DNA of 64,000 nt from Escherichia coli (GCF_044324785.1 NZ_CP172127.1); one strand, 5' to 3'; shown: positions 54,801 to 57,800, counted from the first letter of the stretch. Program-made: the numbers.

Positions 54801-57800
54801 CTTCGGTCAGCATCCCCGACGTTTGAACTGTTTTATCAGGAGTATCAATCCCTAAGATTAAAATCTGTTTTTAAATTTGAACCAAGATTTGAACAACTTT
54901 TAACAAGACTGAGCTTTAGAAAACAATCAATTCTCAGAAAACAACAATACAGGGTTAAATCGCAATTACTGGAGAGACTGGGGAATGTGTTGTTTTTCAC
55001 GTCGCTTTATAACCAGGGATGTTTAGAGGAGTTTATAAATGCACTTGTGGAAAAGGAGGACATTTATCTGAAAATGTCCCCTGGGGAGGAAAAGGTGAAA
55101 GCACACCAGAAAATGGTTAACTACATTGAAGCGTTCTGCAACAAAATGACGGAAAAATACCTGATGCCCGCAGCAAGCAGACACTACAAAAAGAAGAAAA
55201 TCGCCAGGAGCGAAAGTGGTGAAAGTTAATCCAGTCTACCGTACAGAATCAGTTGTTCCAGAATAGCCTGCTGTGTTGTTTTCCGCTCTCTGGTCAGTCT
55301 GTCCAGAGCGCTTTTTGCGGATGGCGATATCTTTACGTTGATTTGTACCCGTTTATCTTTTTTTCCATCGATAAACTGTTTTCTGAATGCATTGTGCATC
55401 TTGTCGAAAAATCTTTCTTTTGCAGCGAATCCTAGGTGAAATTCTTTTGGCGTCAGTAAACAGGGTGTGTCTGTGGGGAATAACATTTTTAGTAAAACTA
55501 CAATGGCAATATATCTTTCGTTATCATTTACAGGATTAAACCAGGAAAGATATGTGGGTGAGATACGTGCATCAATATATTCCCATGCCCATTTCAGTTG
55601 TTCGGTATTCTTTTTAAGCCATTTGGCTTCGTTTCTCTTTTCGAGTCCCAGCCAGTTTTGATGCATTATTGAGATAATCCGATCTGCTTCCCCATAAAGG
55701 ATTAACGCATTAATCCATTTCCCTATAACATTCAGTCGTGTTTCATGACTTGAAGGAATAATTGTCATGGGGTTATCCTTCATAACGATCACCCCCTTCA
55801 AGGCAGAGTTGAACTCAGATTCATTATTAAGTTTAAGTTTTTCGGGAACTGTATGAGACATAATTAACCAGAACCAGAATGCTGCAATTTCATTTTTTCT
55901 GATCCATTCAGGTATGTGATTATCTGCCAGATTATTATCATTCAATAAATGCTCAGTTGTTTTATTTTTCCAGTCATATCTATTCACGTTATAACCGCCT
56001 TTATATTGTTTCATCTGATTACGCCTCAATCGTTTTCTTTTCTGGTGATTTTCACCATCACATGTCAGTTGTATATGCAAGGGGATCAATAAAAATATCA
56101 CCCTGCAAGCACTTCAAAGCTGATTATGGGGATATTCTAGAACTATTCACAAAACTATTCCAGACATATCAAGAACTATTTCTTGACCTATTCATAATAA
56201 AATAAAACATGCTATCAACTACGGCTCATATTCTCCTTGGGGGTGTCGTTGTACTGTTCGACTGTTCTTGTGGTCAGATTAACAATCTGAAGAGTAAAAG
56301 CGACAGTAATCTGTCTGTTATAGTGGCGATAAAAACACTGAATGCGCATCCTGTATGTGAAATCCTGTCATGTAGAGCAGTAAGCAATGACAGACATGCA
56401 TGTTATATGTGAAGGGGGCCGGGAGACGACATAATCAGTATGGCTGTCATTCTGGTTGTAAAACGCGATCACTTTCCGGGGGTAAAAGATGATATGGAGG
56501 TTGACAAACGGTTTGCTTCGGATTGTCTTTTCTGGGGCCTGAAATACGAGGGCAGAAAAATAATTCCAGAGTAAATCTGCTCTGTTTTTAGGACAGAAAA
56601 CTCCATGCTGGCTGTAAAAGTGAAAAATTAACACCCAGTATGTATGGAAGTCTGAAGATGTTGAGAATGTCGGTATGATACTATATACACATATTTTACT
56701 AAGTATTTTTACTAAGCATTTCAGTAAGTGTTATACACGTATTTTCTACTAAGTGTTTTACCAGACATACACGTGTTTTCATAAACAGCCCTATAAGTGT
56801 TTTCATTAAGCATTGCTGTACACATTGCTTTGTCTGAAACACATCCAGTTTAGTAAATCTTTACGTTAGCTAAAATCAGTTTAAAGCTGCTGTAAAACCT
56901 TTCTGTTTAAGCAATCAATCTGCTATTCGATTTTACTGATGTTGCGTTTAACCTTTTCTGAGATTTCGAGTTTCGACGTTAGCATGAGAAAAGTATCTTT
57001 ACGCTAAATCAACCCGAACTTTCCTGAAGTAATCTGACGTTTTTTTCGATGTGCTTACGACGATTCTGTTAAACGACTTTCTGGATGTTTTGATAACAAT
57101 CAGATTGAGGCATTAACGATTCCTGACGTTTTCTTTTCCGTGTAAGGTCATTCTTTTTGTCATGAGGTTTCTTCTTGCATTGCGAAAGTGTGATGAACGG
57201 TTTTGGTGTTTTTGATTCAGATAAGGTTTACGTTATCGATGGTTAATCGTTTTTATGGTGCGTAGTGAAACGTAACTTTTTCAGGATGAGAAAATCGATT
57301 CTGATGTTGGTGATTTTTGTTCTTGTGGCGGGGTTTATCTGTAAACAGGTTTTAAACGTGTCATTCACATCCGTGATTGAGTTGTGTGATTAAGCTGTAG
57401 GTTTTGGGGTTGTTGTTGATTTGCATTACCAGGAAGCGTTCTGGTTGCGTTTCTGGTGTTTTGTTCGAATGTTCTGTGGATCCTTTTCCCTTCTGACTTT
57501 TCTCGTTGTCCATGTCGTTTTTAAATCCATTCGCTGTTCTTGAGTGTTTTTACCCTGCGTGTAGAATTATCTTTTCGTTCCGGGATGGTTTGTTCCGTTT
57601 CAATCACTCTTAATCAGAGAGTTGTAGCATTGCTCAATGCCGGATGCCGTAAAGTTTTACCGCGGTGATTAATGATGTGAAGTCAATCCAAATCAACGGA
57701 GATCTCTCATCATGAATCAACCAATACACAATGCTTACTGGTTATCCCGTTTTGAAAGTATTCTCAACAGTGCCCTGGCGCAGCACCGTGCCGTCTCGTT

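What the first reader, a model, noticed from the sequence alone, without database searches (positions are those of the whole stretch)
56635..57711. A 1.1-kb ORF-free, strongly GT-skewed region with iteron-like repeats upstream of replication-initiator-like genes
No ORF of 60 codons or more exists in any frame across about 1.08 kb. The plus strand is conspicuously T- and G-rich and C-poor.

At the 5' end is a cluster of six TAAG(T/C)(A/G)TT motifs and a duplicated roughly 27-nt unit (56684-56830). Further in, GGTG(T/A)TTTTG(T/A)T-like and TTACG(T/C)TA-like words recur.

The region directly precedes the first of three YagK/YfjJ (inovirus Gp2-like, rolling-circle-initiator-like) genes. Possible explanations are an origin, a nick site or a single-strand initiation region for an excised element, a long structured non-coding RNA, or a heavily silenced (H-NS-type) regulatory region.
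Basis: partly seen in the sequence, partly recalled or inferred. Interest (0 to 1): 0.55.

Follow-up and report, generated by a model that had tools for sequence, protein, structure and literature searches.

The report
Control region upstream of island nickase gene
This non-coding stretch looks like a stretched-out promoter and control region for a DNA-nicking (HUH) enzyme gene carried by a mobile genomic island found in about a third of E. coli genomes; most of it evolves freely, but its left edge holds two short motifs conserved upstream of every related gene examined.

Summary
Window 56635-57711 has no ORF of 60 aa or more, is T-rich on the + strand, and carries a genuine direct-repeat cluster. 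The ORF-free state is not unusual for this composition.

The unit is larger than reported: a block at 56557-57711. It occurs in 1875 of 5426 complete E. coli genomes and is always linked to a YagK/YfjJ gene, which here shows an HUH-nickase fold and motifs.

It is not coding and not a structured RNA. It diverges faster than synonymous sites of the neighbouring gene. It is mosaic: 57227-57558 is replaced by a gene-bearing insert in about a third of copies.

The new result is a two-part element at the left edge.
- Motif 1 is TAA-N3-CAGAGT (56561-56572).
- Motif 2 is TGTYGG..GTAWTATAT (56668-56686).
- Both lie upstream of the YagK/YfjJ-type gene in 14 of the 16 lineages examined, down to 30% protein identity; the other two have only three-mismatch candidates. 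The usual distance to the gene is 260-425 nt; here it is 1151 nt.

In K-12 yagK, motif 2 coincides with the promoter sequence assigned to an RNA-polymerase binding peak in a spacer also marked as H-NS-bound.

Best reading: a conserved promoter/operator module, a tandem protein-binding array, and a weakly constrained expanded leader or spacer. A nick/bind origin for the HUH protein remains a live rival.

The parts
56561..56572 (+). Motif 1, TAATTCCAGAGT (family pattern TAA-N3-CAGAGT). It marks the left edge of the conserved block.
   Evidence: The exact pattern occurs once per locus, always on the gene's strand. It lies 261-425 nt upstream of the YagK/YfjJ-type gene in Providencia, L125, L126, L132, L133/134, five of six IMG/VR loci and K-12 yagK. 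The distance is 911 nt in L127 and 1151 nt here. Only two TAAYTCCAGA matches exist in the 64-kb window.
56567..56589 (.). Short hairpin CAGAG-TAAATCTG-CTCTG followed by TTTTT. It is terminator-like on both strands and overlaps motif 1.
   Evidence: Terminator scan. The stem is kept with changes in other E. coli variants. It is not conserved in other genera.
56661..56687 (+). Promoter-like module TTGAGA-15-TATATA. It contains motif 2 (TGTCGGTATGATACTATAT, 56668-56686). The predicted start is near 56694.
   Evidence: This is the best conserved stretch of the left module in 38 representatives. Motif 2 aligns in 15 of 15 lineages, 63-107 nt after motif 1. In K-12 yagK it equals the spacer and -10 of TTTAGA-16-TATAAT, the sequence assigned to an RpoD-holoenzyme binding peak in a spacer marked H-NS-bound (PMC3946193). 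Promoter function here is inferred.
56687..56815 (+). Tandem direct-repeat array of about 12-13-nt units. Two word types interleave: ACACRTRTTTT (three copies) and TAAGYRTT (six copies).
   Evidence: T-tract period is 11.75-12 nt. Copy number varies among homologues by whole-unit gain and loss. It is the only such cluster in the window.
56816..57226 (+). Rest of the left module. It has patchy conserved blocks and includes the palindrome GTAAATCTTTAC (56853-56864).
   Evidence: Kept at 68-88% identity in both the short and long classes. Conservation map. The palindrome is split by a 15-nt insertion in 6 of 25 representatives.
57227..57558 (+). Replaceable middle module, and the most G+T-skewed part.
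   Evidence: Replaced by about 1.19 kb carrying a 171-aa minus-strand gene in 32 of 96 loci. AT skew reaches -0.45 and GC skew +0.33. 57227-57258 is the best conserved 30-nt window within the short class.
57559..57711 (+). Gene-proximal module. It holds the second palindrome GTAAAGTTTTAC (57649-57660), the Shine-Dalgarno GGAG (57698-57701) and the 8-bp palindrome GAGATCTC.
   Evidence: Kept in both classes. Diversity is 0.004-0.06 over the last 75 nt. Part of that is forced, because the loci were fetched with a pattern covering 57649-57686. It is also invariant in loci found by other routes.
57712..58443 (+). YagK/YfjJ-family gene (243 aa), an HUH-type nuclease.
58800..59372 (+). Divergent YagK/YfjJ paralogue (190 aa); the first His of the HUH motif is lost.
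   Evidence: hhalign probability 92%, E 5.7e-7 over 115 columns. No Pfam hit.
59441..59677 (+). AlpA-type (excisionase-like) DNA-binding protein, 78 aa.
   Evidence: Pfam Phage_AlpA, E 2e-10. PHROG 'excisionase and transcriptional regulator'. An alpA gene lies near the HUH gene in every distant locus examined.
59878..60426 (+). Possible third, degenerate YagK/YfjJ-like gene (182 aa).
   Evidence: PGAP name in strain ES1. hhalign is weak: probability 12%, E 0.0026.

Best explanation
The region is the non-coding control region of the YagK/YfjJ(HUH)-AlpA operon of a family of tRNA-associated genomic islands. In this E. coli lineage it has been stretched from the usual 260-425 nt to about 1.15 kb.

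Function is concentrated at the two ends.
- The left end (56557-56690) carries an ancestral two-part module. Motif 1 (TAA-N3-CAGAGT) is a sequence-specific protein site. About 100 nt downstream is a sigma-70-type promoter whose spacer and -10 region form motif 2.
- A tandem array of 12-13-nt direct repeats starts at the predicted transcription start. It most likely binds an island protein cooperatively: the AlpA-type winged-helix protein or the DNA-binding surface of the HUH protein.
- The right end (the last ~150 nt) carries a second copy of a palindrome, the ribosome-binding site, and probably a proximal promoter or operator.
- The ~850 nt between them is a weakly constrained, AT-rich, T/G-rich filler built partly by slippage of short T-rich units. 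It serves as an untranslated leader or spacer and as a platform for H-NS-type silencing, keeping the island's excision/replication module off until induced.

Shown here: non-coding status, lack of RNA structure, mosaic structure, the two conserved motifs, the repeat array, and the HUH fold of the neighbouring protein.

Inferred: promoter activity at this locus, who binds the repeats and motif 1, H-NS binding, and whether transcripts run the full 1 kb.
For: - Tight linkage: the block is in 1875 genomes and the gene in 1878, of 5426.
- Motif 1 is found once per locus, in the same orientation and at a similar distance upstream of the HUH gene, in lineages whose proteins are 30-50% identical and whose intergenic DNA is otherwise unalignable.
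- Motif 2 aligns in 15 of 15 lineages, 63-107 nt downstream of motif 1. It is the best conserved stretch of the E. coli left module.
- In K-12 yagK, motif 2 is the spacer and -10 of TTTAGA-16-TATAAT. That sequence is assigned to an RpoD-holoenzyme binding peak in the yagL-yagK spacer, which is also marked as H-NS-bound (PMC3946193).
- The window has the matching TTGAGA-15-TATATA.
- The block is 33-40% G+C, against 51-56% in the flanking genes.
- The repeat array is statistically real and varies by whole units.
- The middle evolves faster than synonymous sites (0.14 against 0.098 per site). It tolerates replacement by a gene-bearing insert and microsatellite expansion.
- The leader's skew (T>A, G>C) has the same sign as the 4-fold sites of the downstream gene.
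Against: - No transcript data exist for this locus. The K-12 evidence is in vitro, on a paralogous island, and the promoter sequence there was assigned within a peak by best match.
- The window's -10 (TATATA) lacks the final T, and the tool's own promoter scan did not call it.
- In the long class, a minus-strand gene sits between this promoter and the HUH gene. A continuous 2-kb leader is unlikely there, yet motifs 1 and 2 remain conserved. That suggests a role not tied to HUH transcription.
- The conserved bases of motif 1 (TAA, CAGAGT) do not look like a standard promoter element.
- The repeat words are shared only loosely with Providencia and Brenneria and are absent from three other lineages.
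- A test for a Rho-evading, C-poor leader was negative: the C/G profile is ordinary for this window.
Confidence: 0.45

Rival explanations
1. The left part of the block is the origin on which the YagK/YfjJ HUH nickase acts, either a rolling-circle double-strand origin or a transfer origin. Motif 1 (or motif 2) is the conserved nick sequence, and the adjacent direct repeats are lineage-specific binding sites. After AlpA-driven excision, the island would be nicked there and replicated or mobilised. This is compatible with the promoter reading, because such origins often overlap the initiator's promoter.
For: - The neighbouring protein has the HUH nuclease fold with invariant HxH and YxxK.
- The pattern 'one short core shared by the whole protein family plus repeats that differ between lineages' is what nick and bind loci of HUH initiators look like. 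The pMV158 nic and bind loci and geminivirus nonanucleotide plus iterons are examples from established knowledge.
- Motif 1 follows the HUH gene rather than alpA: in K-12 CP4-57 a candidate lies in the yfjI-yfjJ spacer, and none lies upstream of intA.
- The repeats lie about 115 nt from motif 1 in both E. coli and Providencia.
- Motifs 1 and 2 stay conserved even when 1-2 kb and an opposite-strand gene separate them from the HUH gene.
- The layout resembles M13, where the gene II nick site TAATAGTGGACT lies 226 nt upstream of gene II on the same strand.
Against: - No conserved hairpin or cruciform around either motif, and no excess folding of either strand.
- Repeats are absent in L125, L126 and L127.
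- No similarity to any plasmid or phage origin.
- M13 gene II protein is not detectably related, so that resemblance is analogy only.
- Many E. coli copies of the HUH gene are frameshifted before the catalytic Tyr.
- Motif 2 already has a simpler explanation as a promoter.
- No nicking, replication or transfer has ever been shown for this protein family.
Confidence: 0.25
2. The promoter at the left edge drives a non-coding RNA of its own: an unstructured U-rich transcript containing the repeat array. It would act in cis or in trans, for example as a decoy or binding platform for an RNA-binding protein such as the island's ProQ/FinO-family protein, or by transcriptional interference.
For: - A conserved promoter-like module is far from any ORF.
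- The repeats start at the predicted +1.
- A ProQ/FinO-family gene is annotated 2.7 kb downstream, though it is a pseudogene in the two annotated strains.
- A terminator-like hairpin lies at 57432-57454.
Against: - No conserved secondary structure or covariation on either strand, and FinO-domain proteins bind structured RNAs.
- No Rfam match.
- The sequence downstream of the array evolves at or above the neutral rate.
- The ProQ/FinO gene is frameshifted in the annotated copies.
Confidence: 0.12
3. Apart from the gene-proximal ~150 nt, the block has no function. It would be decaying filler: a relic of lost genes plus slippage-generated simple sequence, carried along with the island.
For: - Divergence exceeds the synonymous rate of the neighbouring gene, and best-hit identities are far lower than for the gene.
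- One third of copies have the middle replaced.
- Microsatellite expansion is seen.
- ORF-poverty is as expected for the composition.
- The skew and repeats are not shared with distant relatives.
Against: - Motifs 1 and 2 are conserved across genera at positions that are otherwise unalignable.
- Rate heterogeneity within the block is significant (variance P<0.0005).
- Length stays within 1048-1206 nt in 64 loci with up to 24% divergence, despite the deletion bias of bacterial genomes.
- No similarity to any island protein in translated searches.
Confidence: 0.1
4. The region encodes one or more small proteins missed by annotation. One candidate is the 50-57-aa minus-strand ORF that PGAP annotates in some strains.
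For: PGAP calls a 57-aa hypothetical protein here in E24377A and PCP07014. The window has a 50-aa ORF at 57361-57513 on the minus strand.
Against: - That frame is intact in only 27 of 75 homologues. Its diversity by codon position is 0.28, 0.24 and 0.24, with no third-position excess.
- The other five candidate ORFs are intact in 7-33 of 75.
- The segment is absent from the long class.
Confidence: 0.03

Closest known systems
The yagL-yagK spacer of cryptic prophage CP4-6 in E. coli K-12, listed as a 'constitutive' RpoD promoter overlapping an H-NS site (Shimada et al. 2014, PMC3946193)
   Same: It lies upstream of a YagK/YfjJ-family gene. It carries motif 1 (TAATTGCAGAGT, 261 nt upstream) and motif 2, which there forms the spacer and -10 of TTTAGA-16-TATAAT.
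   Different: The K-12 spacer is 271 nt with a leader of about 155 nt, no repeat array and no G+T-rich filler. It shares no alignable DNA with the window apart from the two motifs. The published evidence is in vitro binding, not transcription in cells.
Double-strand origins of rolling-circle replicons with HUH initiators, such as the pMV158 nic locus plus direct-repeat bind locus, or geminivirus and circovirus nonanucleotide plus iterons (established knowledge)
   Same: An HUH-fold protein gene lies next to a non-coding region. That region has a short core sequence shared across the protein family and nearby direct repeats that differ between lineages, all on the same strand as the gene.
   Different: No hairpin carries the core. 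Repeats are missing in some lineages. The region is 3-5 times longer than such origins. Nicking and replication are untested. The element is a large chromosomal island, not a small replicon.
Intergenic region of Ff filamentous phages, the gene II protein origin
   Same: A non-coding region lies upstream of the initiator gene with a T-rich + strand. The nick sequence TAATAGTGGACT is 226 nt upstream of gene II in the same orientation, and fits TAA-N3-..GA.T.
   Different: M13 gene II protein belongs to Pfam Phage_CRI and shows no detectable similarity to YagK/YfjJ. No true phage in 50,697 records encodes a YagK-like protein. The resemblance is one of layout only.
AT-rich, H-NS-silenced regulatory regions of horizontally acquired islands (xenogeneic silencing; established knowledge)
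   Same: Low G+C (33-40%) inside a 51-56% G+C island, phased T-tracts, and a position in front of the island's mobility genes. The paralogous K-12 spacer is H-NS-bound in vitro.
   Different: H-NS binding at this locus was not and could not be tested here. Such regions are not normally associated with a family-wide pair of specific motifs.
tmRNA/tRNA-associated genomic islands with a tyrosine integrase, AlpA, RadC and an 'inovirus Gp2-like' protein, such as Pseudomonas I23/I44/I55, which are transduced by a jumbo phage (Zhao et al. 2025, PMC12595487)
   Same: The same core gene set, with the Gp2-like gene next to alpA. No genes for autonomous transfer, and the function of the core genes is unknown.
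   Different: That work did not describe cis-acting sites or the region upstream of the Gp2-like gene. The E. coli islands carry a different far-end module (GTPase, DUF932, antirestriction, CbtA/YeeU) and were not found in viral contig collections by pattern.

Membership tests
Rolling-circle / HUH-initiator origin (nick plus bind loci) | Adjacent gene for an HUH endonuclease with intact HUH and catalytic Tyr motifs | tested here: met
Rolling-circle / HUH-initiator origin (nick plus bind loci) | A short nick-site core conserved across the initiator family | tested here: inconclusive
   TAA-N3-CAGAGT is conserved in position and strand in 14 of the 16 lineages. Whether it is cut cannot be told from sequence.
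Rolling-circle / HUH-initiator origin (nick plus bind loci) | Initiator-binding direct repeats near the nick site | tested here: inconclusive
   Present in E. coli. Looser arrays occur in Providencia and Brenneria. None were found in L125, L126 or L127.
Rolling-circle / HUH-initiator origin (nick plus bind loci) | Nick core presented in a conserved hairpin or cruciform | tested here: not met
   Flanking inverted repeats differ in every lineage. Consensus folding gives z about 0.
Rolling-circle / HUH-initiator origin (nick plus bind loci) | Supports initiator-dependent replication or transfer | not testable with these tools
   Needs nicking and replication assays.
Iteron-type theta origin (plasmid-like) | DnaA boxes and regularly spaced 17-22-bp iterons next to an AT-rich unwinding element | tested here: not met
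   No DnaA box with one mismatch or fewer lies in 55055-64000. Repeat units are 8-13 nt with irregular spacing of 11-44 nt.
Transfer origin related to known plasmids | Sequence similarity to a known oriT region | tested here: not met
   Sensitive blastn against 72,556 plasmids found only four E. coli plasmids, each carrying a copy of the block or part of it.
Single-strand initiation site / single-strand promoter (Frpo-type) | Extensive strand-specific hairpin structure | tested here: not met
   Fold z-scores are -0.11 and -1.23. No conserved structure on either strand.
Structured non-coding RNA | Conserved secondary structure with covariation, or membership of a described family | tested here: not met
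   Sliding RNAalifold on 12 representatives gave consensus energies of 0 to -18 kcal/mol per 120 nt, with z mostly between -2 and +3. No Rfam hit with E of 1 or less in the region.
Sigma-70 promoter | -35 and -10 hexamers with 15-19-nt spacing, and polymerase binding or a mapped start | tested here: inconclusive
   TTGAGA-15-TATATA at 56661-56687 matches 5/6 and 4/6, and was not called by the scan. The homologous K-12 site lies under an RpoD-holoenzyme binding peak. No start is mapped for this locus.
H-NS-silenced xenogeneic regulatory region | AT-rich tract well below the host average within acquired DNA | tested here: met
   G+C is 0.32-0.40 across 56650-57550, against 0.47-0.58 in the flanking genes.
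H-NS-silenced xenogeneic regulatory region | H-NS occupancy and derepression in hns mutants | not testable with these tools
   The only evidence is that the paralogous K-12 spacer is marked H-NS-bound in vitro.
Protein-coding gene or recent pseudogene | Conserved reading frame, codon-position substitution pattern, or similarity to a protein | tested here: not met
Q-like / Pseudomonas AlpA antitermination promoter | Binding element for a Q-like antiterminator between -35 and -10, and a cognate antiterminator gene | tested here: not met
   Motif 2 sits between -35 and -10. However, the Pseudomonas AlpA antiterminator is a larger, 21Q-like eight-helix protein (PMC9371919). The island's 78-aa protein is an excisionase-type Phage_AlpA domain. 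The shared name is not evidence of homology.

The most novel reading that the evidence does not exclude
Motif 1 and/or motif 2, together with the adjacent direct repeats, form the nick and bind origin of a previously unrecognised class of HUH (YagK/YfjJ) initiators. Through it, excised tRNA-associated genomic islands, including aerobactin and other pathogenicity islands of E. coli and Shigella, replicate by a rolling circle or are handed to a helper for transfer. The 1-kb E. coli version would be an expanded origin/control region.
Probability: 0.2. Interest if true: 0.8.

Novelty: new variant of a known kind. Interest (0 to 1): 0.4.

Why it matters
About a third of complete E. coli genomes carry one to several copies of this block, next to the only enzyme-like 'core' gene of a very widespread class of genomic islands. 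How these islands move and maintain themselves is unknown, and a 2025 study of the Pseudomonas counterparts lists the Gp2-like and AlpA genes among likely core element functions without assigning them a role.

The practical outcome is a pair of short, family-wide motifs with fixed order, strand and spacing upstream of every YagK/YfjJ-type gene examined. One of them coincides with an experimentally detected RNA-polymerase and H-NS binding spacer in K-12. This gives concrete targets for nicking, binding and transcription assays, which makes the function of this protein family and the control of island mobility directly testable.

Tried and rejected
1. Structured RNA or single-strand origin. Sliding consensus folding on both strands, single-sequence z-scores and Rfam were all negative.
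2. Small proteins. No frame is conserved.
3. Decayed copy of a neighbouring island gene such as yfjI. Translated searches of all ORFs from 100 loci (L001-L100), and of the long-class insert, found nothing beyond self-type matches.
4. DnaA-dependent origin. No DnaA boxes.
5. Phage cos/pac site or plasmid oriT mimic. No phage hit, and only four E. coli plasmids carry a copy of the block or part of it. No match in IMG/VR for the proximal pattern.
6. Island-wide strand-specific mutation bias, as for a single-stranded replication intermediate. The 4-fold-site skews follow each gene's own strand, not the island strand.
7. A Rho-evading, C-poor leader. The fraction of 78-nt windows with C>G is ordinary for this window, at the 29th percentile.
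8. The repeat words as a universal feature. They are absent in three of five distant lineages.
9. Homology with Ff gene II protein, to carry over its nick site. Rejected.
10. Pseudomonas AlpA antiterminator as a model for motif 2. Rejected, because that protein is not the excisionase-type AlpA encoded here.
11. RfaH ops and Chi-like words. Read by eye only; the candidate words are not conserved in the alignment, so they were dropped.
12. The genome-contig scan with a single protein returned only two mis-binned MAG contigs.
13. PADLOC gave no hit for the variable genes beside the block.
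Full report
**What is at the coordinates.** Window 56635-57711 has no ORF of 60 aa or more; the longest is 50 aa. Composition is T 39.2%, A 23.5%, G 20.8%, C 16.5%. The G+T fraction (0.60) is 2.4 sd above the window mean. The skew is not uniform: it is absent from 56560-56850 and strongest in 57150-57711 (AT skew -0.355, GC skew +0.21). ORF-poverty is not informative here, because 12% of shuffles of the same bases are as ORF-poor.

The repeats are real.
- TAAGYRTT occurs six times on the + strand within 115 nt, against 0.16 expected.
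- ACACRTRTTTT occurs three times and TTACGYTA three times.
- A palindrome, GTAAA-N2-TTTAC, occurs twice, at 56853 and 57649.
- TRF reports a 13-nt-period array at 56694-56759.
- It is the only such cluster in the 64-kb window.

The patterns were derived from the sequence itself, so the p-values are post hoc, but the excess is large.

**Context.** In annotated genomes with the same DNA, the unannotated gap is 56015-57711.
- To the left, on the minus strand, lies the usual far-end module of E. coli tRNA-associated islands: GTPase, DUF905, DUF932, antirestriction, RadC/JAB, DUF987, YeeU/CbtA, DUF4942. It ends next to setC. Two variable hypothetical genes follow.
- To the right, on the + strand, are a 243-aa 'inovirus Gp2 family' gene, a 190-aa gene, a 78-aa AlpA-type gene and a 182-aa gene. 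Then come a ProQ/FinO pseudogene, insertion sequences and cargo (aerobactin in strain SCU-115).

Pfam places the first gene in YagK_YfjJ_C and REP_ORF2-G2P. The 190-aa protein is a divergent paralogue (hhalign 92%, E 6e-7) that has lost the first His of the HUH motif. The 182-aa protein is at best a remote one, although PGAP names it a YagK/YfjJ-domain protein.

**Distribution and limits of the unit.**
- The region matches 1875 of 5426 complete E. coli genomes, with a median of 2 and up to 8 places each, almost all chromosomal.
- The gene matches 1878 genomes, so the two are tightly linked.
- Alignments show that conservation starts sharply at 56557 and runs to the ATG. DNA to the left differs between strains and holds different genes.
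- K-12 has no DNA homologue.
- Only four E. coli plasmids and no phage carry it.

**How it evolves.** I fetched 110 metagenome loci with an exact 38-nt pattern from just upstream of the ATG. This pattern forces conservation at 57649-57686 only.
- From the left-edge motif to the ATG, the block is 1048-1206 nt in 64 loci. These give 50 distinct sequences in 25 clusters at 5%, with up to 24% divergence.
- It is 1775-2580 nt, mostly about 1960-2020, in another 32 loci.
- In that long class, window 57227-57558 is replaced by about 1.19 kb carrying a 171-aa minus-strand gene. The left 670 nt and the right 153 nt are kept.
- Within the short class, mean pairwise divergence of the block is 0.14. It is 0.098 at 4-fold sites of the adjacent gene.
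- Genome-wide, best-hit identities are far lower for the block than for the gene.

So there is no blanket purifying selection. Rates are nevertheless heterogeneous (variance test P<0.0005). The best conserved stretches are 57227-57258 and the last 75 nt.

None of six candidate small ORFs is conserved or shows a codon-position pattern. Translated searches find no relic of island genes. One variant carries a TGAGTTT x8 microsatellite where the window has two units. The repeat array gains and loses whole units among homologues. Much of the T/G-rich body therefore looks like slippage-prone simple sequence.

**Not a structured RNA or hairpin-rich single strand.**
- RNAalifold on 120-nt windows of 12 diverse homologues gave weak consensus energies and z-scores near zero on both strands. 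One window was less structured than shuffles.
- The window sequence folds no better than dinucleotide shuffles, with z of -0.11 and -1.23.
- Rfam found nothing in the region.

**The main new result: a family-wide two-part element.** I compared upstream regions of distant homologues: Brenneria, Providencia, five metagenome lineages, six IMG/VR loci, and K-12 yagK and yfjJ. That is 16 lineages counting the window family; proteins are 30-50% identical to the window's and the intergenic DNA is otherwise unalignable.

Motif 1, TAA-N3-CAGAGT:
- It lies on the gene's strand, 261-425 nt upstream of the start codon, in nearly all.
- The distance is 911 nt in L127 and 1151 nt in the window, where it sits at 56561-56572, the very edge of the conserved block.
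- The exact 9-specified-base pattern occurs once, and only there, in each of those 5-12-kb loci on either strand. About 0.08 matches per locus are expected.
- Brenneria has CAGACT.
- K-12 yfjJ and L131 have only three-mismatch candidates at the expected place, which are not significant on their own.

Motif 2, TGTYGG-(3-4 nt)-RGTAWTATAT:
- It aligns in 15 of 15 lineages, 63-107 nt downstream of motif 1.
- In the window it is 56668-56686, inside the best conserved stretch of the left module across 38 E. coli representatives.

In K-12 yagK, motif 2 is exactly the spacer and -10 of TTTAGA-16-TATAAT. Shimada et al. assign that promoter sequence to an RpoD-holoenzyme genomic-SELEX peak in the yagL-yagK spacer, which they also mark as containing an H-NS site (PMC3946193). 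The window has TTGAGA-15-TATATA at 56661-56687. This predicts a start near 56694 and, if transcription continues, a leader of about 1018 nt. The direct-repeat array begins at that predicted start.

**What this implies.** The ancestral arrangement is motif 1, about 90 nt, a promoter-like motif 2, 150-320 nt, then the HUH gene, with alpA beside it. The E. coli island family has inserted about 800 nt (about 1.7 kb in the long class) between this module and the gene. It is poorly constrained and replaceable, whereas the ends are constrained.

My best reading is a promoter/operator control region with a protein-binding repeat array and an AT-rich filler that probably serves H-NS-type silencing of the island's mobility genes.

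Two observations keep the origin hypothesis alive.
- Motifs 1 and 2 stay conserved in the long class, although a gene on the opposite strand now lies between them and the HUH gene. A role purely as that gene's promoter is therefore doubtful there.
- A short core shared by the whole protein family, plus nearby repeats that differ between lineages (E. coli TAAGYRTT/ACACRTRTTTT, Providencia ATGTGTTT, Brenneria ACACATTTTA), is what HUH initiator origins look like.

Against the origin hypothesis:
- No hairpin is conserved.
- Three lineages lack repeats.
- Nothing resembles known origins.
- Many E. coli copies of the gene are frameshifted ahead of the catalytic Tyr.

The M13 origin has a similar layout: TAATAGTGGACT lies 226 nt upstream of gene II. 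But its protein is unrelated, so this is analogy only.

**Leads that failed.**
- A Rho-evading leader: the C/G profile is ordinary.
- An island-wide single-strand mutation bias.
- DnaA boxes.
- The Pseudomonas AlpA antiterminator as a model for motif 2. That protein is a 21Q-like eight-helix protein, not the excisionase-type AlpA encoded here.

**Verdict.** The structured-RNA idea is rejected, the silenced-regulatory-region idea is favoured, and the origin idea remains open. The block as a whole is a lineage-specific expansion of a conserved control module. The valuable part is the newly seen motif pair, which makes the function of YagK/YfjJ proteins testable.

Noticed in passing
window 54276-56014 (compare L003 2462-3592, L004 4264-5487): The slot between the GTPase gene and the conserved block holds different hypothetical genes in different strains: here a 317-aa + strand gene and a 262-aa - strand gene, elsewhere single genes of 376 or 407 aa. 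It looks like a cargo hotspot. None has a Pfam or PADLOC hit.
   Followed up: partly
L007 987-1502 (-), L124 5613-6143 (-): About a third of E. coli copies carry a 1.19-kb replacement inside the block with a 171-176-aa minus-strand gene of unknown function. Its only hit is a marginal PHROG 'D5-like regulator' match (E 0.006). The insert also contains a second TAA-N3-CAGAGT on the minus strand, inside that gene (L124 5660-5671), which may be chance.
   Followed up: partly
L130 967-1611; proteins P0043-P0062 (214 aa): Many E. coli copies of the HUH gene are 214-aa variants. In the one variant read through (L130/P0058) the frame shifts within the Ser/Pro-rich insert, so the Y213xxK motif is lost. 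This suggests frequent inactivation of the nickase in resident islands.
   Followed up: partly
window 58162-58287 (residues ~151-192 of the 243-aa protein): The E. coli subfamily of the HUH protein has a low-complexity Ser/Pro/Asp-rich insert of about 45 aa between the nuclease core and the Tyr motif (pLDDT below 50). The insert is absent from all other genera examined.
   Followed up: partly
L130 251-307 (equivalent to window 56957-56976): A TGAGTTT x8 microsatellite expansion lies at a site where the window has two GAGWTTC units. This shows that the T/G-rich body grows by slippage.
   Followed up: yes
window 57699-57706: The perfect 8-bp palindrome GAGATCTC, containing a Dam GATC site, overlaps the Shine-Dalgarno sequence of the HUH gene. 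It lies in the most invariant part of the locus.
   Followed up: no
window 60444-60950 (-): A ProQ/FinO-family gene lies just downstream of the operon. It is annotated as frameshifted in strains SCU-115 and ES1, and the window has a 100-aa ORF at 60444-60746.
   Followed up: no
window about 23900-24980: This is the highest G+T fraction of any 1077-nt stretch in the window (0.61), slightly above the finding itself. It was not examined.
   Followed up: no
L007, L008 (genome contigs): Two MAG contigs labelled Bacillus sp. and Bacillota carry this E. coli-type island segment, with 86-87% protein identity to the window's HUH gene. This is most likely mis-binning or contamination.
   Followed up: no
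L142 (OR844780.1): A 4.5-kb 'UNVERIFIED_ORG' record named Escherichia phage ECO111 5-P is the only entry in the phage collection that encodes a YagK-like protein. It has low coverage and no annotation, and is probably host island DNA rather than a phage.
   Followed up: no
L127 3645-5000, L132 2891-4000: Two other lineages, with HUH proteins 43-48% identical, have upstream gaps of 1.1-1.36 kb with at most one small (51-aa) gene call. In L127 motif 1 lies 911 nt upstream of the HUH gene; in L132 only 357 nt, so there the extra DNA lies upstream of motif 1. L127, the only one measured, lacks the G+T skew and the repeat words.
   Followed up: partly
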